Below, in pieces: positions 1,317 through 56,580 of a stretch of 64,000 nt of DNA (the stretch's first letter is position 1; each line of letters starts with the position of its first letter). The notes under the pieces were generated by a model that was not told where the DNA came from, ran no database searches, and saw nothing but the letters and a program-made list of their open reading frames with translations. The position numbers and the translations under genes are program-made. The stretch covers positions 13,156 through 77,155 of the forward strand of contig CAYFPS010000011.1 in NCBI GenBank assembly GCA_964345075.1, given 5' to 3'. The stretch is from an uncultured Bacteroidaceae bacterium (GTDB taxonomy: Bacteria; CAIWAD01).

Positions 1317-1325
1317 GAGGCGATC

Positions 1326-39469: not shown

Positions 39470-41728
39470 CTATTTCAGGAGCAGGGCCTTGGATGTATCA
39501 CGCCAGTTCCCGGCTTCAATCGTGTAGAAGTATACGCCAGCAGGCAGCTGATCGGCGGACCAGCTAATCGAATGTGTTCCCGGGCCCATCAGTCCAAGGG
39601 CTTCGTCATGAACCCGCCTCCCCGACAGATCGTGCACCAGAAAGCGCACGGGCGAGGCAGTTCTTTGCTTCCAGTTGATTGTCGTTGAAGGATTGAAGGG
39701 GTTGGGATGATTGGGTAGAAGTTCAAAAGCAGCCGGAGCGGCGGTATCAACACCGATGGTGATTTCGCCCAGCTGCAGGCTGAAAGGATGGCTCTCACCA
39801 AAACCGGCAAAATCAGCGACAATCCAGTAGATGCCAGCTGGCAGGCCGATTGCTTCCAGCGCTTCGCCATCCGGACCTGCCCCCAGCTCGTTTTGGGCCA
39901 GACCACAGCTGCCCACAGGGTTTGCACAGTCACCATAGACCAGAATCACCTCATCGGCATCGCCTTCGCCAGTCAGTTCGACAAGCAGATTGGTCGCATC
40001 AGTCAGCTCCACCCTGAAGACCTGGTCCAGTCCGGGACTGCTGATCTCATTCGGGCAGCTGCTCCCGTCCACATGGGCCATTGAGGGAGCTTGTTCAACA
40101 TCGATCGAGTAGGTCCCTTCCAGAACGCCGATATCCGTGTAATCGCTGCACATTTCGCCCTCTGGCAGCTGGGCTGTTAAGGACAGCGCGTAATTCTGTG
40201 CCTCTGGAAGATCACCGGGCGCGTTGTGTGTGACAACCACGAAGTAGCTGCCGGCCGGCAGCAGTTCCACACTCAAGGTTTCGGGGTGGCAGGCCGGGGC
40301 ATCATCCACTGCATGGAGCACGGCGCCGTCCGTGGCGAAGTCCGTGATGTAGAGGGCGGCATCCAGCGCGTCTACATCGCAATGAAGCTCCAGAGCCATG
40401 GCGCTTTCAAGTTCGAGCAGGAACCAGTCCTGATCGCGCTCTCCGCCCTCGGCCCAGAGCGTTCCACAGACGAGATCGCCGGGCTGTATCACATCATAGC
40501 TTGAATTGGGCGGATCAGCACTCCAGCCTTCATTGGGCTCCACCTCGGGCTGGCCATCACAGCTGATTGCCTCGTGACCGGCGCAGGGGTCGCCACTGCA
40601 GGCAAGCTCCAGAGAATAGTCGATGGCTGTCAGACCGGAGGGTTCCGATCCGTGATCCACCACGATGTAATAGCTGCCTGAGGGAAGGGCTTCCACGCTG
40701 AAGGATTCGTTGTAACACGCGGGCAGGCCGTTTGCTTCTGCAAGCTGGGCACCATCCACTGCCTGCTCCATCAATCTTAGTCTGCCGTCAAAACCGCTGA
40801 CAGTAAGATTCACTTCGATGTTACCACCAAAGTGCGTGTAGAGGTACCAGTCGCCTGTTGTATCACCGTCTTCAAGTGTGCCGCAGATCAGCTCTCCACA
40901 GCGCAGGAGAGTGTGGCTGCCATCTTCCCAGCCCTGATTCGGCTCTGTTTCCGGCAGACCGACACAGTCTATGGCATCACATTCCGCTGGAGGATAGATG
41001 GAAATGGCTACTTCGTCTTCAAGCTGCAAGCCCGCGCCATTCAATCCGATTTGCAGGCCAACGGTGCCGGACTCATTTTCAACACCGACCGTAGCTGAGT
41101 TTACCCCACCCGGATCCAGATCCAGATACTGGAATGTGATCACGCCGAAAGGGCTCAGGATGGCCTGAAAACTGTGATGCTGCGAGTTGTTGTCGTAGCG
41201 GGGAACATCATCCCATTCGATGATGAAGAGATTGCGCTCCTCGTCATGCCAGGTCAGAATCGCGCCGCCCGCGTCAATCAGGATATCGTCCCACATCGGG
41301 CAGATGCAGTTGTTGGGCTGCACTGTCGAAGGAATGTTCGTGTTGATCCAGACCAGACCGTTGCCGTCAAAGGTCATGTAACCGTTGGTGGAGACCATGA
41401 TGCTGCTGTATTCATTCCCGTAAAAGGGAAAGGACCAGGGCAGATTCACTGTTTCCGCATCATCCAGTCCGCTCAGATTAAGCTGATCGCCAACCTGGTT
41501 GATTTCGATCCAGTCGAATTCGGGGCCGCCGGCCGTGCTGTTGCTGATCCAGAAATAGCCGAAACTGTCCGGCCCGCCACTGTCCCGTGTATCACGAAGG
41601 CTGGCCTCTTGCTGAATGTCGCTACTGTCAGGTGCAGGATCCCCCGGGCGTGCAGTGGCCGGGTGGATAATGGTCAATGTCGCCAGAGTGAGGCCGACCG
41701 GGCAAAGGCGTGAAAAGCGATGCTTCAT
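39470..41728 (-). CDS. T9SS cargo protein A (752 aa): one NIDO-like module, two PPC-like Cys modules, Por_Secre_tail CTD
   Basis: Signal peptide MKHRFSRLCPVGLTLATLTIIHPATA. GGPDSFGYFWISNS..GPEFDWIEI..VSTNGYMTFDGNG..CPMWDDIL..GG.I.. (NIDO-like). Two EPN..W..D.DWY-type modules. C-terminus LLPNHPNPFNPSTTINW...KALLLK. Confidence 0.8.
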   Translation of the reverse strand: MKHRFSRLCPVGLTLATLTIIHPATARPGDPAPDSSDIQQEASLRDTRDSGGPDSFGYFWISNSTAGGPEFDWIEINQVGDQLNLSGLDDAETVNLPWSFPFYGNEYSSIMVSTNGYMTFDGNGLVWINTNIPSTVQPNNCICPMWDDILIDAGGAILTWHDEERNLFIIEWDDVPRYDNNSQHHSFQAILSPFGVITFQYLDLDPGGVNSATVGVENESGTVGLQIGLNGAGLQLEDEVAISIYPPAECDAIDCVGLPETEPNQGWEDGSHTLLRCGELICGTLEDGDTTGDWYLYTHFGGNIEVNLTVSGFDGRLRLMEQAVDGAQLAEANGLPACYNESFSVEALPSGSYYIVVDHGSEPSGLTAIDYSLELACSGDPCAGHEAISCDGQPEVEPNEGWSADPPNSSYDVIQPGDLVCGTLWAEGGERDQDWFLLELESAMALELHCDVDALDAALYITDFATDGAVLHAVDDAPACHPETLSVELLPAGSYFVVVTHNAPGDLPEAQNYALSLTAQLPEGEMCSDYTDIGVLEGTYSIDVEQAPSMAHVDGSSCPNEISSPGLDQVFRVELTDATNLLVELTGEGDADEVILVYGDCANPVGSCGLAQNELGAGPDGEALEAIGLPAGIYWIVADFAGFGESHPFSLQLGEITIGVDTAAPAAFELLPNHPNPFNPSTTINWKQRTASPVRFLVHDLSGRRVHDEALGLMGPGTHSISWSADQLPAGVYFYTIEAGNWRDTSKALLLK

Positions 41729-41751
41729 GCAAACTCCATGCTTGGGAGCTT

Positions 41752-41787
41752 CAAAGTAAAAGAAAAGGGTGACCCTTGGGCCACCCT
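41752..41787 (-). terminator. Intrinsic terminator after T9SS gene B
   Basis: Minus-strand hairpin aagggtggcc-caag-ggtcaccctt followed by ttcttttac. Confidence 0.55.
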
Positions 41788-41810
41788 TGATTGTCTAAAT
41801 CCAGCTGCTA

Positions 41811-44800
41811 CTACTTAAGCAGCACGGCCTTGCGCGTCGCCTGCCACTCGCCGCTTGACAGCGTGTATACATAGACGCCGCTGGGCAAGCTCGCTGCATT
41901 CCATGTGAAAGTATGGCTCCCCGGGCCGCGCAGCCCGAGATCTTCCTGCATCACACGCTCACCCTTCAGGTTGTAAATGCTGATTTCAGCCTTTGCCATT
42001 TCGGGCTGAATCCACTGCACGGTCGTGACCGGGTTGAAGGGATTGGGATAGTTCTGCCTGAGTTCGAAACTGAGCTCGCGCCCTTCCAGCAGGCCGCTGT
42101 TCATGTCGATCACCTGCATCACAAAGGGGTGACTTTCACCGTATCCGGCAAAGTCCGCCACCAGCCAGTAATCACCGGCAGGCAGACCCATGAACTCAAG
42201 CACTTCGCCTTCGGTGCCGGGGCCGTGATCGTTTGCGGCAGCACCACAGCTGATCGCGGGCGTCGCGCAGTTGCCAACCAGCAGAATCACTTCGTCGGCA
42301 TTGCCTTCGCCAGTCATGGCCACATGCAGGTCCATCGGTTCGGCCAGCACCACACGCAGCGTGTAATCCAGACCCGGGCTGGAAACATCACCCGGGCAGC
42401 CGGTGCCGCTGTGATGTGCGTACTCGGGCGCCGTGTCCGCGACCACCGTCCAGATGTCGTGGAAGTCGGGCACATCTTCGTAACCGTCACACATGTCCTG
42501 CGTGGGCAGGCTGCCGGAGACGGTCAGCGCATAGGCCTGCTCCTCGGGCACGCCGTTCATCTCGTTGTGGCCGATCACGATGAAGTAACTGCCAGCGGGC
42601 AGGGACTCAACCGAAATGCTTTCCGGGTGACAGGCCGGCGCGTCGTCCACCTCGTAAAGTACGCCGCCTTCAGGATTCATGTCCGTGATGAAGAGGGCTG
42701 CATCAAAGCCGTCAATTTCGCAGGAGACCACCAGCTCGGTCGCACTTTCCAGCTCCAGCAAGAACCAGTCCATGTCACGCTCGCCGGCATCGGCCCAGAC
42801 CGTACCACAAATGGTTTCGTCCAGAGCGATCACGCCATAGTTGCTGTTGGGCGGATCGGCGTTCCAGCCTTCGTTGGGTTCGGCTTCTGCCGTGCCACTG
42901 CAGTCGATGGGCTCGTGTCCGGCGCAGGGATCGCCCGAGCAGTTCAGCATCAGGGCATAACTCTGCGGGCCTTCCAGATCCGGATCACCGTCATGCTCCA
43001 CAACGATGTAATAGGAACCACTCTCCAGCTCGCTCAAGCTGAAGGCTTCGCCGAAGCAGCGCGGGAAGGTGTTGGCATCGGCCAGGATATCACCGCCCGG
43101 CGCACTTTCGCGCAGTGTGAGACGGGCATCAAAGTCGCTCACATCCACGATGACTTCGATGTTGCCGCCAAAGTGGGTGTAGAGGTACCAGTCGCTGTCG
43201 GTTGTGGTGCCGTCGCTTTCCAGTTCGCCACAGATCACATCGGCACAGCGAATGCTGTTGTAGCTACCGTCTTCCCAGCCCTGATTGGGCTCTACCTCGA
43301 CGATGCCCGTGCAATCAACCGGCTCACAGCTGGACTGGGGCAGATAGACCACCATCGTCTCGTCGGCCACGGAGCCGCCTTCACCCTGATAGCGATAACC
43401 CAGACCACCGGAAGCGTCTGCATTCTCGATACCGACATTGGCATTGGCCACATCGCTCTGATCCATTTCATCATAGGCAACTTCGATGATGCCGCTGGGA
43501 TAAAGGATGATCTCAAAGGTGAAGGGACCGCCCGAGCTGTAAGCCATGATGCCGTCGAACTGCACGATGAAGCGCTGCTCGTCTTCATCGTACTCGTAAT
43601 ACACGGTGCCGCCATTGTTCGGATTCAGGTCGTCCCAGAAGGGAGCGATCATGTTGTCCGGCGACCAGCCATCCCCATTGTAGAAGGGAATCGGGTTGGT
43701 GCTCCAGTAGCCTGTGTAACCCTGACCGAAGCTGATGTAACCGTTTGAAGCGATGTAGACTTCTGACTCGATGCCACCATACCAGGGGAAGTCGAAACCG
43801 ATATCGAAGGGACCATCGAAACTGTCGTCGCTCAAGGACGCAGCACTTCCACTGCCACTGATATCAACCCACTCGAAATCGGGACCAGTAGGATGATCGC
43901 TATTGACCCACGTGTAGCCATAGGCATCGGGGCCGCCGAAGCTGGGCGGACTGCCCCAGTAGCCGCTGTCCGTGTTGGAGGGATCCGACTCGCCCGCGTC
44001 GAAACTGGCGGTCACGTGATAATCATAGATGACATCCGCTTCCGAATCGTAGGAGCTGTCATCGGTGAAGTTCAGGCCCGTGGTCGTGGCAATCAATTCG
44101 CCATCACGGTAGACATTGTACTCGATGAAGACACGCTCATTCAGGTGGAAGATCTCGTTCACCCGGTTGACGGCTTCGTCCTTGCTCAAGCCGCGCTGCT
44201 GCAGCAGGTAAATGGCTTCTGTATCACAGGAGGGCGACACGCCGCCAAACCAGCGGGCCAACAGTCCGGGATTGACAGGTGGCATCCAGCTCAGGCCCGT
44301 ATACGACAGGAAGCCATCCGTTGCCACCAGCCCAACCGGCGGCCAGGTGTAACTGACAATGTTGAAGCTGTACGTCGGTGATACACGCGTGTTGGCGTTT
44401 TCCGAATTGTCCGTTGCCTCAACCCACCAGCTGATCATGCTGCCGGCATCCTGGTGGGGAATGTCCCCCTCGTATGTATCACCGCCAGCATTGTCCATGG
44501 CAACTTCCTGCGAAGCGCCACCGTTGATCTGATAAAACAGGCTGACCGAATCGATACCGGTCAGGTCGGTGATCTCGGCGGAAATGGTGTAATCGCCTTC
44601 CAGCTCGGTTTCCATGTCCACAGGCAGATCGTTCAGCACAATCATCGGAGGCTGGAAATCCCCTTCAAGGGCTTCCACACGAATGGCCAGTTCATCCACC
44701 AGCGCACCACCATCGCCATTGTAGTTGACCAGCAGGCCAATGGTGCCGTCACTGTTCTCGATACCAACCGTGGCAAAGGCCAGAGCGCCTTCTTCCAGGT

Positions 44801-47684
44801 CCAGATACTGGAAGTCCATGTCACCAGTGGGATGGAGGATGGCCTGGAAGGTCTGGTGCCAACCGTTGTTCTGATAAAGCGGAACTGCGTCCCACTGGAC
44901 AATGAAGCGATCATTATCGGTGTCGTGATACGAATAGACGCCACCTCCGGCTCCCAGATTGTAGTCATCCCACATCGGGTAAATGGAATCATTGGGCTCG
45001 AAGCCATCAGGGATCGATCCGTTGGTCCAGGCCAGACCATTGATGCCAAAGGTCATGTAGCCGTTGGACGAAACCGTGATAGTCGTGTAGGTCCAGTCGT
45101 AGAAGGGGAACTGCCAGGGCAGGTCGATGGTGACCATGTCGTCCAGGCTGAAGAGGCCCAGGTTGGTGCCCACATCGCTGATCTCAACCCAGTCGAAGGT
45201 CGGGCCTTCGGGGTCATGGCTGTTCGTCCAGGCATAGCCCATCTCATCCGGGCCACCGCTTGTCGGGCGGGCGCCACGCGATCCGGTGTCGCTATTGGAA
45301 AGATCCGACTCACCGGCATCAAACTGAGCCGTGACATGATAGCTGTACTCGACATTGGGGTCGGCCCCGCCGCCGGGCAGGTCGTAATAGATCGGATCGC
45401 TGGTCGTCCCGATCAGGACATCATCACGGTAGACATTGTAATTCAGGAAGGAGCGCTCACCGCCCTCTGCCAGCAGTTCCAGCCAGATGGCCTTGGCCTC
45501 TTCGCGGTCAAGCCCGTGCTCGCGGGTCAGGCGCAGCATGGCTTCATCAAAACTGTTGGGCATTTCCGTGCCGAACCAGCGGGCTGCCAGTAGCGGCTCG
45601 ACCGGGGCAAACCAGGTGATCAGGCAGTAATCCAGCAGGCCGTCGCTGGCGACAAGCCCAAAGGGCGGCCAGGTGTAGCTGACCACTTCAAAGGAATAGT
45701 TGGCTGTAACACGAAGGTTCTGGCGTTCGCTGGTATCCACCGCCTCGATGCGCCACACGATCAGGCTGCCCATTTCCTGATGGGGAATGCCTGCCTCGTA
45801 TGTATCACCGTCCGTGTTCGTCATGACGACTTCAAACTCTTCGCCATTGTTCACGCGGTAGAACAGGCTGGCGGAGCCTACACCGGTGTCATCGGTAATG
45901 GTGGCTTCCACCATGTGATCACCGGGCAGCTCGGCTTCAACGGTCTCGGGCAGATTGGTGAAGCTGACGATGGGGGCCAGGAAGTCGCCGTCCAGCTGAC
46001 CGAAGAGGATGGCCGTGCCGTCTGCCAGGATGCCGCCCTCGCCATTGTAGTTGTACTCGAGGCCTATTGTGCCGTCCATGTTCTCGATGCCCACGCTTGC
46101 GCCCAGCAGGTCACCTTCGTCCAGATCCTGATGAACAATGATGATCTGGCCGCTTTCATAGAGCTGCGCTTCAAAGGAGAAGGGCACGCTGCCACCAAAG
46201 GCCGGAACCTGTTCGAACTGCACAATGAAGGCGCCACTGCTTTCGTCAAGACCGTAATACACGCTGCCGCCGGAACTGGGGTTCATGTCGTCCCAGAACA
46301 TGGCGATCATGTCGTTGGGCGTGCTTGTGCTGGGCATGATTGTGTTACCCAGACTTCCACTTCCCACACCAAAAGAGATGAAACCGTTGGAGCCGATGTA
46401 GAGCTCGTCCCAGGTGTTCTCGTAGAAGGGGAAGGTAAAGCCGATATCGACCGGCCCGAAACTGCTGTCGTCGGAAAGCCCGGCGATTTCGCCGGTGGCA
46501 CTGATATCGATCCACTCGACTCCGGGGCCTTCGGGATCCAGACTGTTCATCCAGGCATAACCCATTTCGTCCGGTCCTCCGGCCGTCGGGCGACCGGGTG
46601 TGGGATCGATGCTGACTTCATAGTCACCAACCTGTGTCCCCTCGTCGCCGATCAGCAGGTGATAGCTTCCGGCGGCCAGATTGAGCTCGCGCATACGCGC
46701 GGCGCCGGGCATGATGCTGCAGTCGCTCCAGCCCTGTGAGGCCACCAGCATGCCACCGTCGCAGGGATCGCCATCAAAGAGGTAGAGATCCAGGGCGTAG
46801 CTGGTACCGGAGAAGCAGGCGTCAAAATCATAGAAGCCGTCTTCCTCAATGGTGACGATGTAGCCGTGATCAGCGCCATCACCGCCAACCACACTCACGC
46901 CATCCGCATTGTTGCCAATCAGGAGCGCGGGCGCTGTAACGGTGGCCTCCGGGGCGTACTCTTCACAGGGCGTGAGGCACTCATCATCGCTGAAGGTCAC
47001 GGTCAGGTCGTAGTTACCACTGTCGCCGCCATAGGCATCGATCACCAGATAGTAGGTGCCGGCCTGCAGGCAGCAGGGAGGCAGATCGGACGACCAGTTT
47101 GCACAGTCAGCGCCATCGTCATTGGCGGCAATCAGCACCATGTTTTCATCAAAGATGCCGATGCAGCTGTCATAGTCGGCCGTGTTACAAACACTGGCCG
47201 CAACCTCGTAGGAAGCCTCCAGCGTAAAGGTGTACCAGGCGTCGGGACCGTCGAAACTGCTTGTGGTATAGAAGCTGCTGTTGCATTCAGTCGGTGTGGC
47301 CTGACCAACCGGAACCGTGTCGCTGAAACCGACAGTCGTTCCCGTATCCGTAAAACTGCCGCCTGCGGCAAAGGTGATTTCCACCGCGTCTTCCGGTGTA
47401 TCACCGCCATCGCGCTGATTCTGCTGTGTTACACCGCGATTTGGAAATAGTCGATCCTTCAGCCATTCCGGCGCGGGCTGGCCGATCGACTTGTAATAGG
47501 CGTAGAGAGCCTGATCATCAACCGTCGCGGGAAGTCCCAGTTCAGCCTTGAGGCTGTTCAGTGATACACCGCCTGCATCGGCTTTTTGCTGCAGCTCGAC
47601 CTCGCTCAAAGCGAGCGCGCTGGATGCACCAAGCAGGAGACCGCCTGCGATCGCGGGCAGCCATCGAGAACTAACGTTGTACAT
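41811..47684 (-). CDS. T9SS cargo protein B (1957 aa): two N-terminal PPC-like modules, three [NIDO-like + Ig-like + Fn3-like] repeats, two PPC-like modules, Por_Secre_tail CTD
   Basis: Signal peptide MYNVSSRWLPAIAGGLLLGASSALA. Three repeats of ..RPT.GGPD.MGYAW.NS.DP.GP...W..IS..G ... SSNG[FY].[ST]FG ... [PM][FM]WDD.NP..GG.VYY ... RFIVQ[FW]. C-terminus NYPNPFNPVTTVQW...KAVLLK. Confidence 0.85.
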   Translation of the reverse strand: MYNVSSRWLPAIAGGLLLGASSALALSEVELQQKADAGGVSLNSLKAELGLPATVDDQALYAYYKSIGQPAPEWLKDRLFPNRGVTQQNQRDGGDTPEDAVEITFAAGGSFTDTGTTVGFSDTVPVGQATPTECNSSFYTTSSFDGPDAWYTFTLEASYEVAASVCNTADYDSCIGIFDENMVLIAANDDGADCANWSSDLPPCCLQAGTYYLVIDAYGGDSGNYDLTVTFSDDECLTPCEEYAPEATVTAPALLIGNNADGVSVVGGDGADHGYIVTIEEDGFYDFDACFSGTSYALDLYLFDGDPCDGGMLVASQGWSDCSIMPGAARMRELNLAAGSYHLLIGDEGTQVGDYEVSIDPTPGRPTAGGPDEMGYAWMNSLDPEGPGVEWIDISATGEIAGLSDDSSFGPVDIGFTFPFYENTWDELYIGSNGFISFGVGSGSLGNTIMPSTSTPNDMIAMFWDDMNPSSGGSVYYGLDESSGAFIVQFEQVPAFGGSVPFSFEAQLYESGQIIIVHQDLDEGDLLGASVGIENMDGTIGLEYNYNGEGGILADGTAILFGQLDGDFLAPIVSFTNLPETVEAELPGDHMVEATITDDTGVGSASLFYRVNNGEEFEVVMTNTDGDTYEAGIPHQEMGSLIVWRIEAVDTSERQNLRVTANYSFEVVSYTWPPFGLVASDGLLDYCLITWFAPVEPLLAARWFGTEMPNSFDEAMLRLTREHGLDREEAKAIWLELLAEGGERSFLNYNVYRDDVLIGTTSDPIYYDLPGGGADPNVEYSYHVTAQFDAGESDLSNSDTGSRGARPTSGGPDEMGYAWTNSHDPEGPTFDWVEISDVGTNLGLFSLDDMVTIDLPWQFPFYDWTYTTITVSSNGYMTFGINGLAWTNGSIPDGFEPNDSIYPMWDDYNLGAGGGVYSYHDTDNDRFIVQWDAVPLYQNNGWHQTFQAILHPTGDMDFQYLDLEEGALAFATVGIENSDGTIGLLVNYNGDGGALVDELAIRVEALEGDFQPPMIVLNDLPVDMETELEGDYTISAEITDLTGIDSVSLFYQINGGASQEVAMDNAGGDTYEGDIPHQDAGSMISWWVEATDNSENANTRVSPTYSFNIVSYTWPPVGLVATDGFLSYTGLSWMPPVNPGLLARWFGGVSPSCDTEAIYLLQQRGLSKDEAVNRVNEIFHLNERVFIEYNVYRDGELIATTTGLNFTDDSSYDSEADVIYDYHVTASFDAGESDPSNTDSGYWGSPPSFGGPDAYGYTWVNSDHPTGPDFEWVDISGSGSAASLSDDSFDGPFDIGFDFPWYGGIESEVYIASNGYISFGQGYTGYWSTNPIPFYNGDGWSPDNMIAPFWDDLNPNNGGTVYYEYDEDEQRFIVQFDGIMAYSSGGPFTFEIILYPSGIIEVAYDEMDQSDVANANVGIENADASGGLGYRYQGEGGSVADETMVVYLPQSSCEPVDCTGIVEVEPNQGWEDGSYNSIRCADVICGELESDGTTTDSDWYLYTHFGGNIEVIVDVSDFDARLTLRESAPGGDILADANTFPRCFGEAFSLSELESGSYYIVVEHDGDPDLEGPQSYALMLNCSGDPCAGHEPIDCSGTAEAEPNEGWNADPPNSNYGVIALDETICGTVWADAGERDMDWFLLELESATELVVSCEIDGFDAALFITDMNPEGGVLYEVDDAPACHPESISVESLPAGSYFIVIGHNEMNGVPEEQAYALTVSGSLPTQDMCDGYEDVPDFHDIWTVVADTAPEYAHHSGTGCPGDVSSPGLDYTLRVVLAEPMDLHVAMTGEGNADEVILLVGNCATPAISCGAAANDHGPGTEGEVLEFMGLPAGDYWLVADFAGYGESHPFVMQVIDMNSGLLEGRELSFELRQNYPNPFNPVTTVQWIQPEMAKAEISIYNLKGERVMQEDLGLRGPGSHTFTWNAASLPSGVYVYTLSSGEWQATRKAVLLK

Positions 47685-47787
47685 AGGGGCTCCTATTTAG
47701 CCTGAGGCCAGATTCTTGGCAGGTTCCGCTTGCAGCTTACAAAGTGGGGGGCGTTGATTCGAGGAAAAAACCACTATACAGCAGCTT

Positions 47788-47828
47788 TAACAATGAAAGG
47801 GGCGGCCCTCGTGAATGGACCGCCCCTT
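47788..47828 (-). terminator. Intrinsic terminator after T9SS gene C
   Basis: Minus-strand hairpin aaggggcggtcc-attcacga-gggccgcccctt followed by tcattgtt. Confidence 0.5.
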
Positions 47829-47854
47829 GCTTGAATGCGATTGCTTGGGCTGAA

Positions 47855-50800: not shown

Positions 50801-52807
50801 ACCGATGGTGGCACTGGTCAGGTCGCCCTGCATGTCTTCCAGCTGAATCAGGATACTGCCATCGGCATTCATGATGGCCTGGAAGGTGTTGGGCGGACTG
50901 CTGGGGCCGGGGTAATCGGGCACGCCCGTGAACTGCACAATGAAGCGATCGTTGGCCGTGTCTTCCAGATAGTGCACGCTTCCGACGCCATCGCCCGGAT
51001 CCAGATCGTCCCAGAACATGGAAATCATGGCATTGGGCGAACCGGCATCGGGCAGACAGACATTGCCCAGACTGGAACTGGCGGCCTGGAAGTTCAGGTG
51101 ACCGTTGGAGCTGATGTAGATCTCGCTGTAGACACCCTCATAGAAGGGGAAGTCGATGCCCATGGGGAAGGGGCCGAGGCCCTGATCGTCACCAAGAGAA
51201 ACGAGCACGGCAGCGGGATCGCCCGAAATGTCCACCCAGCTGTACTCGGGGCCATCGGGATCCTGATTATTGACCCAGGCATAACCCATTTCGTCCGGGC
51301 CGCCGCTGGTCGGGCGCTCGGGCGTGGACTGAATCATGACCTCGTAGTTGCCCACGGTGGTCCAGTCGTCACCGATCAAGAGGTGATAGCTGCCGGGCTC
51401 CAGGGAGCGTTCCATCAGGCGCGCAGCACCCCAGGGGGCCGTGCAGCTGGAGGAGTTGCTTTCATAAAGCAGGGTGCCACCGTCGCAGGGGTCGCCATCA
51501 AAGAGGGAAAGGGTCAGGCTGAAATCGCTGCCCGGCATGCAGGCATCGAAGTCGTAAAGACCCGCTTCGTCAATGGTGACCACATAGCCGACATCCGGTG
51601 CGGCGCCCCAGTAGATGTCCACGCCATCGCCCGTGTTGCCCACAAGGGTCGTGGGAACGGAAACCGTTTCCAGCGGCTCATAGGCATCACAGGGTGAATA
51701 GACATTGATCGTGAAGGCACCTTCGCCCGAACCGGGACTGGCCACACGCATGTGGTAGGTGCCGGCTTCCAGCGCCTGATTGCCCAGCAGGCCCGGGAAG
51801 GCCGCGCCCCCTTCGGTGCAGCTGACGCCGCCCGACTGGGCCAGAATCACGCCGCCATCGCAGGGCGAAGCATCCATCAGGTAGAGAATGACATCAACTT
51901 CGGTGCCAGCGTCGCAGGCATCAAAGGAGTAGATGCCGGAAGTGCCCAGGGTCAGCGTGAAACCGCTGTCGCCCCAGCCATTGCCGTCCACATCCGCCGC
52001 GTCAACCGTGCTGCCGCTGAAGCTGCCGGGAATGGTGGCCTCGGCCAGTTCATCGGCGTACTGATCGCAGGGTTCCTGGCAGATTGCGTCACTGAAGCTG
52101 ACCGTCAGGTCGTAATCACCCTCGGCCGTGCCGTAGGAATCCACCACCACATAGTAGGTGCCGGCCGGCAGGCAGCAGGGAGGCAACAGGGAGGTCCAAC
52201 CGGTGCAATCGGCGCCATCATCGTTGACGGCAACCAGGTTGAGGTTTTCGTCCAGAATGCCCAGACAGCTGTCGTAGGTGGCCGCGTCACAGACGGTGGC
52301 CGAGACTTCGTAGCTGTCATCCAGCGTAAAGGTGTACCAGGCATCCGGCCCGTTGAAGCTGGATGTGGAATAATAGCTGGTGTTACAAGCGGTGGGCGGA
52401 GGCGTACCTACCAGCAGCACATCGCTGAAGCCGACGGTCGTTCCCGAATCGGTCCAGTCGCTGCCCGCTGTAAAGATGATTTCCACAGCTTCTTCCGGCG
52501 AATCACCACCATCGCGCTGGATGCGATCGGTCGTGCCAGCCAGCGGAAAGAGGCGGCTGATCAGCCATGCCGGGGCTTCTTCACCCTGTTGCTTGTACCA
52601 GGCGTAAAGGTCTTGGTCAGCCAGATTCCGCTCCGCGCCGGAATCCAGCAGGTGGCCGTATTCGGCCTCAAGCTCAGCCATGCTCTGTCCGCTGGTCCGG
52701 GACTTCTGCTCAAGGTCCTCGATGGACAGAGCAAAGCCTGCTGGGCAAGCAATGAACAGAGCAATCCACCCGGTCAATACGGGCACCAATCGTCCGATGT
52801 GTGACAT
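47855..52807 (-). CDS. T9SS cargo protein C (about 1650 aa), paralog of B with the same module order
   Basis: Probable start MSHIGRLVPVLTGWIALFIACPAGFALS at 52807, which has the same GGAGCCCCTATG context as gene B. The track ORF up to 52894 adds 29 aa with no signal-peptide character. N-terminal 200 aa show strong paralogy to B. C-terminus NHPNPFNPVTSISW...KAVLLK. Confidence 0.85.
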   Translation of the reverse strand: MSHIGRLVPVLTGWIALFIACPAGFALSIEDLEQKSRTSGQSMAELEAEYGHLLDSGAERNLADQDLYAWYKQQGEEAPAWLISRLFPLAGTTDRIQRDGGDSPEEAVEIIFTAGSDWTDSGTTVGFSDVLLVGTPPPTACNTSYYSTSSFNGPDAWYTFTLDDSYEVSATVCDAATYDSCLGILDENLNLVAVNDDGADCTGWTSLLPPCCLPAGTYYVVVDSYGTAEGDYDLTVSFSDAICQEPCDQYADELAEATIPGSFSGSTVDAADVDGNGWGDSGFTLTLGTSGIYSFDACDAGTEVDVILYLMDASPCDGGVILAQSGGVSCTEGGAAFPGLLGNQALEAGTYHMRVASPGSGEGAFTINVYSPCDAYEPLETVSVPTTLVGNTGDGVDIYWGAAPDVGYVVTIDEAGLYDFDACMPGSDFSLTLSLFDGDPCDGGTLLYESNSSSCTAPWGAARLMERSLEPGSYHLLIGDDWTTVGNYEVMIQSTPERPTSGGPDEMGYAWVNNQDPDGPEYSWVDISGDPAAVLVSLGDDQGLGPFPMGIDFPFYEGVYSEIYISSNGHLNFQAASSSLGNVCLPDAGSPNAMISMFWDDLDPGDGVGSVHYLEDTANDRFIVQFTGVPDYPGPSSPPNTFQAIMNADGSILIQLEDMQGDLTSATIGIENADGTIGLSYNCNTDGGSIIDGTAVLFTQLEGDFIAPLITLDAMPSTTIETELTGDYVVEATITDESGLTSANLYYTLNGGAAVEVALTNTAGDDYTGAIPHQDAGNTVVWWLEAVDASDLANVRITESYSFEVVSYTWPPFGLDATDGLLDYTQITWMAPVEPTMALAWFGGDMPAGETEALDRLVREHGLSKTEALEVWESMQAGSSREFITYHVYRDGEDIATTTELFYYDMPGDGAEQDVEYDYHVTAEFDSGESDASNTDSGFRGSRPTSGGPDAFGYIWVSSLDVAGPEYEWIDISGSGQDLAIVGDDTSGQINLPFDFPFYGSFYSSALVSSNGYLTFGGDGTDYTSDPIPTADDPNDLIAPFWDDLYTSVGGVIYYEYIEAQSCVVIQWQDVPHLAMPEYTNTFQAVLYQSGIIQISWEDMYPGDLQNATVGIENSDASIGLAYNVNGEGGAISNEVTMIMTPPSNCEPVECDGIAEAEPNGGWADNTWNVIRCDDVICGELESDGTTTDSDWFLYTHFGGNIEVSLDLSDFDGRISLVEFENGGDTIAEADVFPRCFDEAFAVTELEGGSYFIVVEHVGDPDLEGAQSYSLSLTCSGDPCAGHNPIDCEGTAEAEPNEGWNADPPNSSYGVIALDETICGTVWAENGERDMDWFLLELESAINLTISCEVDAFDAALFLTEMDPAGGVLLEVDDAPACAPESLSYEALPSGSYFIVIGHNDLYGVPEEQAYSLTVSGNLAEQDMCEGYEDVPDFHDIWTVVADTAPQYAHHSGTGCPGDVSSPGLDYTVRIVLSQTTDLQVTMTGAGNADEVILLVGNCETPAISCGAAVDDFGAGTESETLTFAGLPAGDYWLVADFAGYGEAHPFVMEIIDMNSSLAEGRELSFQLKQNHPNPFNPVTSISWTQPEMEKAELAIYNLMGEMVMQQDLGLRNAGTHNYMWDASSLSSGVYIYTLKVGAHVDTKKAVLLK

Positions 52808-52911
52808 AGGGGCTCCCAAATCCTTGAGCCAGTGTGATGTTAAAGGCAGGTTCCGAAGGGCTAGAGTAGCAAATCCCAAGCTGGAATCATGCATTTGGGA
52901 CCTTGTGCAAT

Positions 52912-52939
52912 AAAAAAGGGTCCCGCCTGCGCGGGACCC
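52912..52939 (-). terminator. Intrinsic terminator after T9SS gene D
   Basis: gggtcccgc-gcag-gcgggaccc hairpin followed by TTTTTT on the minus strand, directly after the gene D stop. Confidence 0.8.
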
Positions 52940-52961
52940 TGTTGCTTCTGATAAAGCTGGA

Positions 52962-55900
52962 TTACTTCAGAAGGACGGCCTTCTTGGTATCCGTGAAGTC
53001 GCCAACGGTCAGCGTGTAGATGTACACACCGCTGGAAAGGCTGCTGGCATCCCAGACAAAGCTGTGGCTACCGGCGGCGCGGCTACCGAGCTCGACGCTC
53101 TGAACCTTTTCACCCATGATGTTGAAGACCGTCAGGTTGGCCTGGGCCAGCTCGGGCTGGTTCCAGCTGATGGTCGTCGTCGGGTTGAAGGGGTTCGGGT
53201 AGTTCTGCTCGAGGCTGAAGCTGGCCACGATGGTCGGGTCAACATCGATGTCATAACCGAAGCAGAAGTTCAGGTCATAGGCATCGCTGCCCCAACCGGC
53301 ACCGCTGTCCAGCAGGCTGGTCATGTCGGCACCCGTCGAGCTGCTGCCCCAGAGGAACCAGCAGCTGGCGTCGCCGGCACCCTGAACACCGATCCAGCCT
53401 TCGGCCATTTCCAGCGGAGCGGGCAGGTCGAAGGTGAAGGTCATGCTCTCGTAAACACCGGCGTAGAGGTTGCCCGTCGGGACACCACTCAGGCTGACGT
53501 CGAAGGACTCAACCTCGTTGCCCGGCAGGTTGCCGGCTTCGTAGAAGGTGATGTAGAAGGGCGTGGGATCTTCGGTACAGGCATTCCAGGCGGCACCGTC
53601 GTTGAAGAGGGCCAGACCGTCAAAGCTGACGCTCGTGATGGCCTGCGGCACGTTGCCAAAGGCTTCTGCGCGGTTGTAGAAAGTACCGGCGCCGTCGGTG
53701 TCAAATTCGGAAACGCCGAAGCTCCAGCTGTCATCCACACCGGCAACCGTCTGGCAGTCAACATACTCGATCGTGCCACCGCAGGTGGTCTCAAGCGTGA
53801 AGGTGTAGTCACCACCGGTCCAGGCGTAGCAGTCAACCACCACATAGTAGGTGCCGGCGTCGTAGCTGCCCGTGATCGATTCGTCGGAACCGACGGCCCA
53901 GGGCATGTCAAGGCAATCCAGCGGATCGCAGCTGCCGAGCAGAACCAGATCAAGGTCTTCTGCATCCGGGGAGCTCATCGTGATGGTCATCAGACCGCCA
54001 GCGTGCTCGAGCTCGTACCAGACTTCCGGTCCGTCTTCACCGCCGAAGCAGTAGTCTTCGTACATGTTGCCAACCTGGCTGTCGGCGTTGGAACCCATCA
54101 TGAGGCCATTGCACTCGAGGGTGATGGTGGCATCGCAGGGATCGGTGAATTCACAGGGAACACAGTCCACGAAGAGGCTGTAGGCCTGCTCGTCAACAAC
54201 ACCTTCAAAGCCGTTGTGACCCATCCACACGTAGTAGATACCGGCGGGCAGGCACTGGCTCATGGCCTCGCCATCATAGCTCTCGGGCTCGCAGAAGCCG
54301 GCGTTGTTGACGGTGGCGATGATGTTGTAAGCGTCGTCCATGATGAAGACCAGACCGTCGAACATTTCGACATCGGCGCTGATCGTCATGTAGGTGTCAC
54401 CCAGCGTGAAGACCTCGAACCAGTCGGCATCACGGAAGCCACCATCGGCCCAGACGGTACCGCAGGTGGTCGTGCCGCATTCGATCGTGCCGAAGGTGTC
54501 GTCGCCACCAAAGTCCACCGGACCATTGTTGGGCTCGCCTTCGTCCAGGCCGTCGCACTCGATGGGCTCGCAGCTGCCACAGGAGATGTTCAGGCTGAAG
54601 TTACCTTCGCTAGAACTGTAACCATCGACAACCAGCCAGTAGGTACCGGCATCCAGGGCCATCACAATCTGGCTCTGCAGGCCGCAGCTGTCGTCGTTGG
54701 AGGCGATCATGGTGCCGCCACTGACCGGGCAACCATCCCACAGGGTCAGGTAGCTGTCGTAGTCCGTGCCGCCGTCGCAAAGGTCGAAGGTCACAGGGGC
54801 GGTGGCATCGACGTCAATCTGGAAGAAGAAGTCGCCGGAAGCATTGTTCACGTAATTGAACATGCCGACGGTGCTACCCGCGTAGCTGTCACCGCAGCCA
54901 AGCACAACGGGATCCACGCAGGGATCGTCGATGTTGCAGGCTTCGGCCACGACAGTCAGGCCATAGTTGGCAGGAATGTCAACACCCGTGAAGCCATTGG
55001 GGCCAACCCACACATAGTAGGTGCCGGCAAAGAGGCAGGCGGAGACAATCTGCTCGTCACCACAGATACCGGCGTTGTCAGCCGTGTAGAGGATGGTGGC
55101 GGCGTCGCTGTCGATGATGAACATCAGAGCGTTGAATTCTTCCACGGCGAGGTCGGCGGTAATGATCGAGTTCTCGGTCACGACCAGCTCGAACCAGTCC
55201 GTGTCGCGGGAATCGAAGCCCGTCTCGTCATCGAAGTAGGTGTAAACCGTACCGCAGACGGTTTCGCCACTGGTGATGGAACCGAAGGTGCCGTCGCCAT
55301 TGGGGCCGTCATTGGGCTCGACTTCAGCCGTGCCGTCGCAGTTGATGGGATCGCAGCTGTTGCAGGTCACGTTCAGGCTGAAGTTACCTTCGCTGGCACT
55401 GTAACCGTCCACAACCAGCCAGTAGGTGCCGGCGGTCAGGGTGGCGTCAATCTGGCTCTGCAGGCCGCAGCTGTCGTCGTTGTTGGCGATCATCGTGCCG
55501 CCGTCGGTTGGGCAGGCATCCCACAGGGTCAGGTAGCTGTCATAGTCCGTGCCGCCGTCGCAAAGGTCGAAGGTCACGGGGCCGTCGGAGGCCAGATCAA
55601 TCTGGAAGAAGAAGTCGCCAGCAGCGTTGTTGACATAGTTGAACATGCCAACCGTGCTGCCCACATAGTTGTCACCACAGCTGAGGACAACCGGATCGAT
55701 GCAGGGATCGTCACCGGCCTGGCCTTCTTCTGCGGTAAAGGCTACGTTGCCACCTTCGCCGTAGTAGTCCGTGATGGCGATGATGTAGTCAACGCCCGTC
55801 TCGAAGACGAAATCGCCCTGCGTCAGGTAGGTGGCCCAGGCTGCGACGGCGCAGCCACTGTCGCCGTCACGATAGAAGAGCTCAACCATCGTGTCACAGG

Positions 55901-56354
55901 CGTCGAAGATGTACAGGTCGGTGTCACAGTCGGTGCCATCAACACAGGTGTCGATGTTCAGGCCAACGCCCGTACCCGTCCAGGCAAAGTACTGGAAACC
56001 GCCAGCGGGAATCGCCCAGGTGGTTCCCGCTGAAGCGAGAATGTCTTCGGCAGAAGCACAGTCTTCGTTACGGTTCTCGAGGCTGGGCGTGACGCGGTTG
56101 GCCGTGCGGAGGTGGGCTTCCACCTTGGCCAGCTGTTCGGCACTCAGTTCGCCCGTGCTACCGAGATTGCCCCTCAGGGCTTCGTTCTCAACCACATCCT
56201 TGACAACGAGCTCGGCCGAGTTGCCGAAAGGAACGTTCTCGAGGTTCTGGTTGCTGTTTGCCTTGCTGCTCGTGGAAGCCGCGGAAATGCCCAGCGAAGC
56301 ATAGGCGCTACCCGCGACGGCCAGGACGAGACCAGCCGTAAGCAATTTCTTCAT
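52962..56354 (-). CDS. T9SS cargo protein D (1130 aa) built of repeated PPC-like Cys-containing modules with Por_Secre_tail CTD
   Basis: Signal peptide MKKLLTAGLVLAVAGSAYA. Repeats of ..EPN.GP...G....CGTV......D.DWFE..... and DLCDGGTDYDSYLTLWD.CP..GGTMIA.NDDSCGLQSQI (two near-identical copies). C-terminus NYPNPFNPTTTISW...KAVLLK. Confidence 0.85.
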   Translation of the reverse strand: MKKLLTAGLVLAVAGSAYASLGISAASTSSKANSNQNLENVPFGNSAELVVKDVVENEALRGNLGSTGELSAEQLAKVEAHLRTANRVTPSLENRNEDCASAEDILASAGTTWAIPAGGFQYFAWTGTGVGLNIDTCVDGTDCDTDLYIFDACDTMVELFYRDGDSGCAVAAWATYLTQGDFVFETGVDYIIAITDYYGEGGNVAFTAEEGQAGDDPCIDPVVLSCGDNYVGSTVGMFNYVNNAAGDFFFQIDLASDGPVTFDLCDGGTDYDSYLTLWDACPTDGGTMIANNDDSCGLQSQIDATLTAGTYWLVVDGYSASEGNFSLNVTCNSCDPINCDGTAEVEPNDGPNGDGTFGSITSGETVCGTVYTYFDDETGFDSRDTDWFELVVTENSIITADLAVEEFNALMFIIDSDAATILYTADNAGICGDEQIVSACLFAGTYYVWVGPNGFTGVDIPANYGLTVVAEACNIDDPCVDPVVLGCGDSYAGSTVGMFNYVNNASGDFFFQIDVDATAPVTFDLCDGGTDYDSYLTLWDGCPVSGGTMIASNDDSCGLQSQIVMALDAGTYWLVVDGYSSSEGNFSLNISCGSCEPIECDGLDEGEPNNGPVDFGGDDTFGTIECGTTTCGTVWADGGFRDADWFEVFTLGDTYMTISADVEMFDGLVFIMDDAYNIIATVNNAGFCEPESYDGEAMSQCLPAGIYYVWMGHNGFEGVVDEQAYSLFVDCVPCEFTDPCDATITLECNGLMMGSNADSQVGNMYEDYCFGGEDGPEVWYELEHAGGLMTITMSSPDAEDLDLVLLGSCDPLDCLDMPWAVGSDESITGSYDAGTYYVVVDCYAWTGGDYTFTLETTCGGTIEYVDCQTVAGVDDSWSFGVSEFDTDGAGTFYNRAEAFGNVPQAITSVSFDGLALFNDGAAWNACTEDPTPFYITFYEAGNLPGNEVESFDVSLSGVPTGNLYAGVYESMTFTFDLPAPLEMAEGWIGVQGAGDASCWFLWGSSSTGADMTSLLDSGAGWGSDAYDLNFCFGYDIDVDPTIVASFSLEQNYPNPFNPTTTISWNQPELAQANLTVFNIMGEKVQSVELGSRAAGSHSFVWDASSLSSGVYIYTLTVGDFTDTKKAVLLK

Positions 56355-56540: not shown

Positions 56541-56580
56541 ATTATAGAAAGACAGGGGGAGACTTCACAACGACAAAGCT
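56541..56580 (-). promoter_or_regulatory. sigma70-like promoter of T9SS gene D with a ~180-nt 5' UTR
   Basis: Minus strand TTGTGA-N18-TATAAT. ATG at 56354 preceded by AAGGGAGA. Confidence 0.5.

What the first reader, a model, noticed from the sequence alone, without database searches (positions are those of the whole stretch)
39470..56354. Tandem array of four co-oriented giant paralogous T9SS cargo genes (17 kb)
Four consecutive minus-strand genes of 752, 1957, 1679 and 1130 aa each carry a signal peptide and a type-A T9SS C-terminal sorting domain (N[YH]PNPFNP.TT..W ... KA[VL]LLK). They are built from the same modules in different copy numbers: 1 versus 3 NIDO-like repeats, and 2 to many PPC-like modules. 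B and C are full-length paralogs; for example, their N-termini share RDGGD[TS]PE[DE]AVEI.F.AG...TD[TS]GTTVGFSD and GPDAWYTFTL..SYEV.A.VC. This looks like a lineage-specific expansion of surface or secreted adhesin-like or sequestering proteins. Modular architecture and divergence between copies are typical of accessory, fast-evolving loci.
Basis: partly seen in the sequence, partly recalled or inferred. Interest (0 to 1): 0.85.

Follow-up and report, generated by a model that had tools for sequence, protein, structure and literature searches.

The report
Tandem T9SS surface-protein gene array
Four neighbouring genes in an uncultured Delongbacteria-lineage bacterium encode large, very acidic secreted proteins built only from binding-type modules; they are probably surface adhesins or substrate-capture proteins, an ordinary kind of locus but an uncharacterised family.

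Summary
Four co-oriented minus-strand ORFs (752, 1957, 1679 and 1130 aa) all carry a T9SS type-A sorting domain above curated cut-offs and are real, diverged paralogues, not an assembly artefact. Corrections: NIDO-like copies are 1/3/2/0; PPC-like modules are 3/5/6/6; gene C most likely starts at 52807 (1650 aa).

No catalytic domain was found. Everything assignable is a β-sandwich binding-type module:
- PPC / collagen-binding-domain-like
- NIDO-like (confident model, no solved relative)
- weakly CBM56-like, and Fn3-like by eye
- a lectin/CBM-type jelly roll in D

The proteins are extremely acidic and cysteine-rich.

The array sits at a conserved position (bshCBA … convergent Mg-chelatase-like gene) in related Delongbacteria-lineage contigs, with at least 2 to 4 genes and recurring layouts. 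Against a strain 89% identical in DNA, dN/dS is 0.05–0.13, like the housekeeping control. It is therefore not fast-evolving, although gene A is a nonsense pseudogene in that strain and B and C share a gene-conversion tract.

Best reading: non-enzymatic, probably Ca2+-stabilised T9SS surface adhesins or substrate-capture proteins. This is a new member of a known kind, of modest interest.

The parts
39470..41728 (-). Gene A (752 aa): signal peptide, 1 NIDO-like module (40991-41590), 3 PPC-like modules (40592-40993 and 40166-40588 with the E-x-EPN motif; 39761-40153 without it), T9SS type-A CTD (39473-39706)
   Evidence: An A-type short gene also ends the array in L008. A close strain carries a nonsense allele.
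41811..47684 (-). Gene B (1957 aa): signal peptide; conserved helical N-terminal region (47415-47606); 2 PPC-like modules (46596-47411); NIDO (45996-46592), spacer unit (45267-45992), NIDO (44670-45269), spacer unit (43947-44666), NIDO (43338-43949); 3 PPC-like modules (42102-43340); CTD (41814-42050)
   Evidence: Pfam NIDO 77.8 bits (3 stretches) and CBM_56 32.6 bits in the second spacer.
47855..52807 (-). Gene C (ORF runs to 52894; probable true start 52807, 1650 aa): signal peptide; helical region (52523-52726); 3 PPC-like modules (51320-52522); NIDO (50708-51316); spacer unit (49979-50704); NIDO (49382-49981); 3 PPC-like modules (48146-49384); CTD (47858-48091)
52962..56354 (-). Gene D (1130 aa): signal peptide; 6 PPC-like modules (53781-56093, two with E-x-EPN); unassigned X domain (53220-53777) predicted as a lectin/CBM-type jelly roll; CTD (52965-53201)
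52917..52940 (-). Terminator-like hairpin plus T-run after D
   Evidence: 10 pairs, 8 GC
47797..47828 (-). Terminator-like hairpin after C
   Evidence: 12 pairs, 9 GC
41765..41788 (-). Terminator-like hairpin after B
   Evidence: 10 pairs, 6 GC
42690..42962 (-). Gene-conversion tract in B; its partner in C is 48734-49006
   Evidence: Synonymous divergence trough, pS 0.19-0.23 against ~0.6-0.75 upstream. 84% DNA identity over 300 nt and 93% over 54 nt.
48734..49006 (-). Gene-conversion tract in C (partner of 42690-42962)
56541..56570 (-). Sigma-70-like promoter match upstream of D (weak evidence only)
   Evidence: 10 of 12 positions; such sites are fewer than in shuffles across the region
56630..59918 (-). 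Upstream syntenic anchor: bshA-like GT4, bshB (PIG-L), bshC
   Evidence: The same genes flank the array in L002.
37834..39405 (+). Downstream syntenic anchor: convergent Mg-chelatase/YifB-like AAA+ gene
   Evidence: It flanks the array in L002, L003/L004, L005, L007, L008 and the 31.6-kb JGI contig.

Best explanation
The locus encodes four separately terminated genes for non-enzymatic T9SS cargo proteins of a Delongbacteria-lineage bacterium.

Proposed mechanism:
1. Each protein is exported by Sec via its N-terminal signal peptide.
2. It is recognised through its type-A C-terminal domain by a type IX secretion system.
3. It is then displayed on, or released from, the cell surface.

The mature proteins are long strings of 4 to 13 β-sandwich modules, made up as follows:
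- PPC / collagen-binding-domain-like modules. Two per protein keep an E-x-EPN...D-x-DW motif that resembles the double Ca2+ site of the ColG collagen-binding domain.
- NIDO-like supersandwich modules.
- A spacer unit that is weakly CBM56-like in its first half and Fn3-like by eye in its second.
- In D, a lectin/CBM-type jelly roll.

They most likely act as Ca2+-stabilised multivalent adhesins or polymer-capture proteins that bind protein or glycan substrates or surfaces. The paralogues would offer different module numbers and reach.

The array is maintained by purifying selection. It is remodelled by module gain and loss, gene conversion between paralogues, and occasional gene loss.

Shown here: ORFs, CTDs, paralogy, module map, absence of detectable catalytic domains, synteny, selection regime, conversion tract.
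Inferred: actual secretion, Ca2+ binding, the binding function and its ligands.
For: CTD above curated cut-offs in all four.

Sec-type N-termini and Shine-Dalgarno contexts.

Twenty modules form one family. Their profile hits ColG/ColH collagen-binding domains at E = 5e-7. The ColG/ColH PPC domains are collagen-binding domains, and ColG CBD binding to collagen is inhibited by EGTA, i.e. Ca2+-dependent (PMC6168687).

E15, E17, P18, N19, D54 and W55 are invariant in the 8 EPN-type modules. They align to ColG s3a EMEPND...DDADTF (weak).

The X-domain model (pLDDT 86.6) matches phage tail-spike and baseplate domains, the Cwp84 lectin-like domain and many CBMs, with no enzyme fold.

No Pfam or NCBIfam catalytic family was found in any of the four proteins or their unassigned segments.

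Composition is extreme: D+E 15-16%, K+R 1.6-2.8%, Cys up to 3.7%, unlike the neighbouring genes.

dN/dS is 0.05-0.13.

The syntenic array is conserved in relatives.

Taxon: GroEL is 89% identical to a Candidatus Delongbacteria MAG. T9SS is reported as probably present in other FCB phyla (PMC11285876).
Against: No T9SS machinery gene lies in the window, and I could not check the rest of the genome.

No ligand is identified.

Single PPC-like modules fall below the Pfam threshold. The profile of the 8 EPN-type modules alone finds nothing in the PDB.

The Ca2+-site mapping rests on a 9-bit alignment and on a ColG linker sequence that I recalled from memory.

The 'Fn3-like' label is by eye only, and the CBM56 support is weak.
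Confidence: 0.6

Rival explanations
1. The proteins are non-catalytic partners or scaffolds of secreted peptidases. This would be analogous to P. gingivalis HagA, which is built from the same adhesin modules as the gingipains. Here the NIDO-like and PPC-like modules are those otherwise fused to giant S8 and C25 peptidases, and they would target or assemble a surface proteolytic complex.
For: Beyond the 13 close family members, most remaining hits to B are S8 or C25 peptidases that share only the NIDO-like module at ~40% identity, 1-5 copies each. PPC domains classically sit at peptidase C-termini (Pfam definition; PMC6168687). An S8 peptidase gene lies in the window at 12169-14394.
Against: The window's S8 peptidase has no NIDO-like, PPC or CTD match and lies 25 kb away. 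No peptidase gene is conserved next to the array in any related locus. There is no evidence of module-module interaction.
Confidence: 0.15
2. The proteins are motility adhesins of the RemA/SprB type, moved along the cell surface by a T9SS-linked gliding machinery.
For: The NIDO-like profile matches the N-terminal region of RemZ, a RemA homologue (E = 1.6e-9). They share the type-A CTD and a large repetitive architecture.
Against: No SUEL/lectin domain of RemA was found. The window encodes flagellar FlgK and a flagellin-family protein, pointing to swimming. Gliding genes were not seen, though only 64 kb was examined. The homology covers a single module that occurs in tens of thousands of proteins.
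Confidence: 0.08
3. A module with no assigned function carries a cryptic enzymatic or autoprocessing activity. The main candidate is the NIDO-like supersandwich, with its invariant W-D-D and G-I-E-N motifs. The proteins would then be enzymes rather than binders.
For: The NIDO-like model is very confident (pLDDT 95.2). It resembles, weakly, the mutarotase-like supersandwich domains of glycoside phosphorylases, polysaccharide lyases and aldose epimerases. Polar positions are strongly conserved across 36 diverse copies.
Confidence: 0.07
4. The array is an antigenic-variation or diversity-generating cassette system in which gene conversion shuffles surface epitopes to evade phages or grazers.
For: A gene-conversion tract lies between B and C. 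Module relationships are mosaic. Gene number is variable and one gene is a pseudogene in some populations.
Against: Every copy has its own SD sequence, signal peptide, CTD and terminator, so there are no silent cassettes. dN/dS is 0.05-0.13, with no domain above 0.33 apart from the short signal-peptide/linker segment of A at 0.80. No recombinase or invertible element lies nearby. Outside the tract, synonymous sites between B and C are saturated, so conversion is rare.
Confidence: 0.05
5. The four ORFs are an assembly artefact of one collapsed or mis-joined repeat.
For: The content is repetitive and modular, and the source is a metagenome-assembled contig.
Against: The copies are at most 84% identical over 300 nt and mostly saturated at synonymous sites. 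An independent assembly is identical over the A/B junction. A second strain has the same gene order. Related genomes have equivalent arrays.
Confidence: 0.01

Closest known systems
T9SS type-A CTD cargo proteins of Bacteroidota / FCB bacteria (TIGR04183 / PF18962), often encoded as tandem paralogues
   Same: Signal peptide plus a C-terminal ~75-aa type-A sorting domain ending K-A-[VL]-L-L-K. Large multi-domain β-sandwich passengers. Tandem paralogy.
   Different: The host is an uncultured Delongbacteria-lineage bacterium, not Bacteroidota. Secretion is unproven. The passenger architecture (NIDO-like plus PPC-like strings, no enzyme) is, as far as I could find, undescribed.
Clostridial collagenase ColG/ColH collagen-binding domains (PPC fold; PDB 5IKU, 1NQD, 4HPK)
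   Same: The 20-module profile matches them at E = 5e-7 to 1e-3. Both occur in tandem. Eight modules keep an E-x-EPN...D-x-DW motif resembling the Ca2+ site.
   Different: There is no attached peptidase. The modules are Cys-rich (up to 7 Cys each) and ~130 aa long. Twelve of the 20 lack the EPN motif. Collagen binding is not implied for an environmental bacterium.
Flavobacterium johnsoniae RemA/RemZ gliding adhesins
   Same: They are type-A T9SS substrates with an N-terminal region homologous to the NIDO-like module (PMC10994853).
   Different: No RemA-type lectin domain is present. Only one module is shared. The organism appears flagellated.
Porphyromonas gingivalis HagA versus the gingipains RgpA/Kgp (my own knowledge)
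   Same: HagA is a non-catalytic T9SS cargo built from repeats of the adhesin modules that are otherwise fused to secreted peptidases. Here the NIDO-like and PPC-like modules are shared with giant S8/C25 peptidases.
   Different: The module families are unrelated: no Cleaved_Adhesin domain is present. This is an analogy of logic only.
Metazoan NIDO domain (PF06119; nidogen, MUC4, SNED1, alpha-tectorin)
   Same: The Pfam NIDO HMM matches B and C at 72-78 bits. The S-N-G-[YF]-x-x-F and F-W-D-D motifs are shared.
   Different: The context is bacterial, with 1-3 copies here and up to 18 elsewhere. The function is unknown in both. Fold equivalence could not be tested because AFDB was unavailable.

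Membership tests
T9SS type-A cargo | C-terminal type-A sorting domain (TIGR04183 / PF18962) at the extreme C-terminus | tested here: met
   All four are above the curated cut-offs: PF18962 33.6-44.4 bits (cut-off 27) and TIGR04183 34.2-40.6 bits (cut-off 23). The domain ends within 5 residues of the stop codon.
T9SS type-A cargo | N-terminal Sec signal peptide | tested here: met
   By inspection only, since no predictor was available. A, B and D have a basic n-region, a hydrophobic core and an A-x-A-like site. C has one only from M30, the start that also has the SD context.
T9SS type-A cargo | T9SS machinery (SprA/Sov, PorV, PorU, PorK/L/M/N) encoded in the same genome | not testable with these tools
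   None was found among the window ORFs scanned. The genome-collection scan did not recover the source genome. The literature reports probable T9SS in other FCB phyla (PMC11285876).
T9SS type-A cargo | Experimental secretion with CTD removal | not testable with these tools
   This needs proteomics or genetics.
NIDO (PF06119) | Match to the family HMM above the gathering score | tested here: met
   B 77.8 bits, C 72.3 bits, A 25.6 bits (cut-off 25, borderline), D none. A self-built HMM finds 6 full-length copies.
NIDO (PF06119) | Same fold as metazoan NIDO domains | not tested
   The AFDB library was unavailable. No NIDO structure exists in the PDB to compare with.
PPC / collagen-binding domain (PF04151; ColG s3) | Match to the family HMM above the gathering score | tested here: inconclusive
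   Whole proteins score 27.1-34.4 bits against 25.9, but these are summed weak matches. The best single module scores 15.8 bits. A profile of the 20 modules hits ColG/ColH CBDs at E = 5e-7 to 1e-3, which supports homology at the superfamily level.
PPC / collagen-binding domain (PF04151; ColG s3) | Double Ca2+ site (E-x-E-[PN]-N-D ... D-x-x-D) and Ca2+-dependent ligand binding | tested here: inconclusive
   The motif is invariant in 8 of 20 modules and aligns with ColG s3a, but the score is 9.3 bits and the ColG linker sequence was recalled from memory. Binding itself is not testable here.
CBM56 (PF22184) | Match above the gathering score | tested here: inconclusive
   One copy in B scores 32.6 bits against 27. 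The first copy scores 15.2 bits. The three-copy profile hits bglH at E = 0.05.
RemA/SprB-type gliding adhesins | Homology beyond the shared N-terminal module (RemA lectin domain), plus gliding machinery | tested here: not met
   Only the NIDO-like module matches RemZ residues 60-191. No lectin domain hit was found. Flagellar genes are present in the window. Gliding genes elsewhere in the genome cannot be tested.
HagA/gingipain adhesin family | Cleaved-adhesin domain repeats | tested here: not met
   No such Pfam family appeared in any of the four proteins. The comparison is a functional analogy only.

The most novel reading that the evidence does not exclude
The NIDO-like module is a widespread assembly or recognition module. 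It is confidently folded, has no solved structural relative, and is present in about 40,000 protein clusters, including giant S8 and C25 peptidases of FCB candidate phyla. On this reading the array proteins would be non-catalytic scaffolds that recruit NIDO-bearing peptidases, or capture their substrates, in a cellulosome-like surface proteolytic complex exported by a T9SS outside Bacteroidota.
Probability: 0.07. Interest if true: 0.6.

Novelty: new member of a known kind. Interest (0 to 1): 0.3.

Why it matters
If the reading is right, the locus adds an uncharacterised family of large non-enzymatic surface proteins to the T9SS cargo repertoire of a poorly known FCB-group candidate phylum. That would give a handle on how these uncultured bacteria attach to or harvest polymers.

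The more general point is the NIDO-like module. It is abundant in bacterial secreted giants (39,700 cluster representatives), folds confidently, and has no solved structure or known function. A structure and ligand for one of these copies would annotate tens of thousands of proteins and might inform the metazoan NIDO domain.

The array is also a clean small example of paralogue evolution by module gain and loss, gene conversion and pseudogenisation under overall purifying selection.

None of this is very surprising to a T9SS specialist.

Tried and rejected
- Genome-collection scan with B: it returned only an unrelated Saprospiraceae CTD match, so there is no species-level presence/absence survey.
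- AFDB fold search: the library was unavailable.
- Foldseek of the NIDO model against the PDB: nothing significant.
- Profile of the 8 EPN-type modules against the PDB: no hit. Literature searches for the ColG Ca2+ ligands found no residue-level statement. The Ca2+-site mapping therefore stays an inference.
- Pfam on isolated unassigned segments (N-terminal helical region, X domain, spacer): nothing meaningful.
- Profile of the X domain against PDB sequences: nothing.
- Shared promoter or operator motif: no k-mer is shared by three or more upstream regions. A GGAACC (ECF-like -35) element upstream of B, C and D is not conserved in related loci apart from the close strain, and it occurs at 0.3 per kb per strand in the window. 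Rejected.
- Compositional island: GC is flat at ~0.59 across the window.
- tRNA and Rfam sweep: nothing.
- Literature on bacterial NIDO domains or Delongbacteria surface proteins: nothing relevant.
- Collapsed-repeat artefact: rejected.


Full report
OBSERVATION

The four ORFs exist exactly as described: A 39470-41728, B 41811-47684, C 47855-52894 and D 52962-56354, all on the minus strand, 752/1957/1679/1130 aa (translations). Each ends in a type-A T9SS sorting domain. Pfam Por_Secre_tail scores 33.6-44.4 bits (cut-off 27), and TIGR04183 scores 34.2-40.6 bits (cut-off 23).

BLASTP shows paralogy far beyond chance. A aligns to the C-terminal ~710 aa of B and C at 47-48% identity. B and C are colinear at 60% over 1163 aa. 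D shares only ~130-aa modules (29-37%) and the CTD (58-66%).

GC content is flat at ~0.59 across the window, so there is no compositional island.

IS IT AN ARTEFACT?

No. The best DNA identity between copies is 84% over 300 nt. Most of the B/C alignment is saturated at synonymous sites. An independent ENA assembly (L001) is 100% identical over window 38267-42369, which spans the A/B junction. A JGI contig from a related strain (L007, 89.3% nucleotide identity over 11.8 kb) has the same C-B-A-Mg-chelatase order.

ANATOMY

Self-built HMMs started from two different seeds converge on the same 20 'P' modules of ~115-145 aa: 3 in A, 5 in B, 6 in C and 6 in D. They also find 6 NIDO-like modules of ~200 aa (A 1, B 3, C 2, D 0) and a two-part spacer unit between NIDO copies (B 2, C 1).

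The layouts are (h = N-terminal helical region, p = P module without the EPN motif, E = P module with it, N = NIDO-like, I and F = the two spacer halves, X = D's jelly roll):
- A: SP-N-E-E-p-CTD
- B: SP-h-p-p-N-I-F-N-I-F-N-E-E-p-CTD
- C: SP-h-p-p-p-N-I-F-N-E-E-p-CTD
- D: SP-p-p-E-p-E-p-X-CTD

Single P modules do not reach the Pfam PPC threshold (best 15.8 bits). The whole-protein PPC scores of 27-34 bits are sums of weak matches. However, a profile of all 20 modules hits the collagen-binding domains of clostridial collagenases ColG and ColH: 5IKU at E = 5e-7, and 4HPK, 1NQD and 1NQJ at ~1e-3. 'PPC-like' therefore holds at the superfamily level.

Eight modules, two per protein, have invariant E-x-E-P-N and D-W residues. 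These align on ColG s3a 'EMEPND...DDADTF'. From my own knowledge that motif is the double Ca2+ site of the domain. The alignment is weak (9.3 bits), and part of the ColG sequence was recalled from memory, so this is an inference. ColG/ColH PPC domains are collagen-binding domains, and ColG CBD binding to collagen is inhibited by EGTA, i.e. Ca2+-dependent (PMC6168687).

The NIDO-like modules match Pfam NIDO well in B and C (77.8 and 72.3 bits) and marginally in A (25.6 bits). Their profile hits one PDB sequence, 8GL6 chain D residues 60-191, at E = 1.6e-9. That chain is RemZ, a homologue of the F. johnsoniae gliding adhesin RemA and a type-A T9SS substrate. Only its CTD is resolved (PMC10994853).

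The module is very common. It matches 39,700 cluster representatives at E <= 1e-3 and 5,952 at E <= 1e-30, with up to 18 copies per protein. In the hit set for B it occurs 165 times in 66 proteins, mostly giant S8 and C25 peptidases from Krumholzibacteriia, Polarisedimenticolia, Cloacimonetes and others.

The first half of the spacer is weakly CBM56-like: 32.6 bits in one copy and bglH at E = 0.05. The second half looks like an Fn3 domain with a helical insert, by eye only.

No catalytic family was detected anywhere in the four proteins.

All four proteins are extremely acidic (D+E 15-16%, K+R 1.6-2.8%, pI at or below 4.05, the lower limit of the calculation) and cysteine-rich (1.4-3.7%). Their neighbours are not.

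GENE STRUCTURE

Each of the three intergenic gaps holds a strong minus-strand hairpin with a T-run. Each gene also has its own GGAG-type ribosome-binding site. The genes therefore look like separate, or at least attenuated, transcription units.

C's first ATG (52894) has no SD sequence and lies 23 nt after D's terminator. The ATG at 52807 has the same GGAGCCCCT-ATG context as B and yields a normal signal peptide. C is therefore probably 1650 aa. Consistently, the 1679-aa sequence is absent from the protein collection.

CONTEXT AND TAXON

The window is ordinary chromosome: MetH, MutL, Alr, SAM synthetase, AdoHcyase, GroEL, FlgK and a flagellin-family gene, among others. No T9SS machinery gene was found among the ORFs scanned.

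GroEL is 89% identical to a 'Candidatus Delongbacteria bacterium' MAG protein. The next named phyla (Calditrichota, KSB1) are at ~73-76%. The closest named array homologues are also from Delongbacteria. T9SS is thought to occur in several non-Bacteroidota FCB phyla (PMC11285876).

COMPARATIVE GENOMICS

The array lies in the same slot in every related contig I could fetch, immediately upstream of a convergent Mg-chelatase/YifB-like gene. In L002 it lies downstream of bshC-bshB-bshA-hisS. The window lacks hisS at this position.
- L002: 2 genes (D-type 1482 aa and B-type 1983 aa).
- L003/L004: 4 genes (1307, 1497, 1666 and 2092 aa).
- L005: at least 3 genes.
- A 31.6-kb JGI contig: at least 3 genes.
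- L008: at least 2 genes, including a 733-aa A-type gene at the end.

The C-type layout recurs in at least five genomes and the B-type in at least three. The family and its layouts are therefore ancestral to this lineage and not a recent private expansion.

Nevertheless, a tree of the last 510 aa groups the NIDO-bearing paralogues by genome. N-terminal regions, in contrast, pair across genomes (window C with P0002), and NIDO modules intermix. Per-domain identities show B-C at 82-83% in the last two P modules against 64-79% to the nearest foreign homologues.

A sliding window of synonymous divergence between B and C gives:
- saturated values (pS 0.6-0.75) upstream;
- 0.4-0.55 across the E-E-p region;
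- a trough of 0.19-0.23 at B residues ~1575-1665.

This trough coincides with the 84% and 93% DNA repeats. B and C are thus old paralogues with gene conversion in their 3' halves.

SELECTION

Against strain L007 (dS ~0.45-0.5), dN/dS is 0.077 for B (domains 0.005-0.15), 0.049 for the last 791 aa of C, and 0.13 for A. The flanking Mg-chelatase-like control gives 0.052.

These genes are under strong purifying selection. 'Fast-evolving' is not supported at this timescale.

Gene A is relaxed. In L007 it carries a single TGG-to-TGA nonsense change at W172, inside the NIDO-like module, with no indels. The protein collection holds the same 171-aa and 557-aa split products on a second JGI contig, and the 557-aa piece also in a Logan assembly. 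Other assemblies have intact 752-aa alleles.

INTERPRETATION

The best-supported reading is a set of non-enzymatic T9SS cargo proteins. They would be multivalent, probably Ca2+-stabilised strings of binding-type β-sandwich modules displayed on or released from the cell surface, acting as adhesins or polymer-capture proteins. Secretion, Ca2+ binding and ligands are all inferred.

The main rival is a HagA-like role as non-catalytic partners of NIDO/PPC-bearing secreted peptidases. This is a refinement of the main reading more than a contradiction of it.

The other rivals are less likely, for the reasons listed with each: a gliding adhesin, a cryptic enzyme in the NIDO-like module, and an antigenic-variation cassette system.

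NOVELTY AND VERDICT

Tandem paralogous T9SS cargo genes with modular passengers are a well-known kind of locus. This family (NIDO-like plus PPC-like, Delongbacteria lineage) carries only generic names in the sources searched ('hypothetical protein' or 'T9SS type A sorting domain-containing protein'), and I found nothing about it in the literature.

I rate it a new member of a known kind, interest about 0.3. The one lead of general interest is the abundant, confidently folded but structurally and functionally uncharacterised bacterial NIDO-like module.

Noticed in passing
window 52807-52894: Gene C's longest-ORF start (ATG 52894) is probably wrong. It has no Shine-Dalgarno sequence, lies 23 nt after D's terminator, and gives no signal peptide. 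The ATG at 52807 has the same GGAGCCCCT-ATG context as gene B and gives a normal signal peptide.
   Followed up: yes
L007 8501-10759 (orthologue of window 39470-41728): In a strain 89% identical in DNA, gene A carries a single TGG-to-TGA nonsense mutation at W172, inside the NIDO-like module. The protein collection holds the same 171-aa and 557-aa split products on a second JGI contig, and the 557-aa piece also in a Logan assembly. Other assemblies keep the intact 752-aa allele.
   Followed up: yes
window 42690-42962 and 48734-49006: There is a local trough of synonymous divergence between B and C (pS ~0.2 against ~0.65 elsewhere). This marks a gene-conversion tract inside otherwise ancient paralogues.
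   Followed up: yes
window 56630-59918; L002 75-4860: Bacillithiol biosynthesis genes (bshC, bshB, bshA) lie immediately upstream of the array, both here and in L002. The relatives L002, L003 and L004 have hisS directly upstream of the array, but the window does not. Any functional link between a low-molecular-weight thiol pathway and these cysteine-rich secreted proteins is unknown and may be coincidental.
   Followed up: partly
window 22819-26737: Three co-directional genes: a very acidic 647-aa predicted lipoprotein (lipobox FAAC, no Pfam or NCBIfam match), a 422-aa protein with no family match that looks like an outer-membrane β-barrel, and an ABC ATPase. Possibly an uncharacterised envelope system.
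   Followed up: no
window 12169-14394: A 741-aa S8 subtilase with no T9SS CTD, NIDO-like or PPC match. It is unlike the NIDO-bearing giant S8 peptidases found as distant homologues of B.
   Followed up: partly
proteins P0080 and P0088-P0098 (homologues of D): Many D-type homologues share the X jelly-roll domain but lack the T9SS CTD. They end instead in an Fn3-like segment with a conserved terminal Cys (…VCxE). This suggests a different anchoring or export route in other lineages.
   Followed up: no
[not shown]
   Followed up: partly
window 47415-47606 and 52523-52726: B-type and C-type proteins share a ~65-aa helical N-terminal region with a conserved [L]Y-x-x-YK-x-x-G-x-x-AP-x-WL-x-x-RLFP motif. 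It is found only within this family and has no Pfam match. It could be a propeptide or a docking segment.
   Followed up: partly
window 30-2249: Flagellar hook-associated FlgK and a flagellin-family (FlgL-like) gene show that the organism is probably flagellated. This bears on the gliding-adhesin alternative.
   Followed up: partly
window 31044-33273: A DUF3570 protein is followed by an ApbE-family flavin transferase. The pair has no link to the array that I could see.
   Followed up: no
window 47685-47854, 52808-52961, 56355-56629: A GGAACC element (CGGAACCTGCC in B and C) lies upstream of B, C and D and resembles an ECF-sigma -35 box. It is conserved only in the close strain L007 and not in more distant arrays, and it is not rare in the window.
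   Followed up: yes
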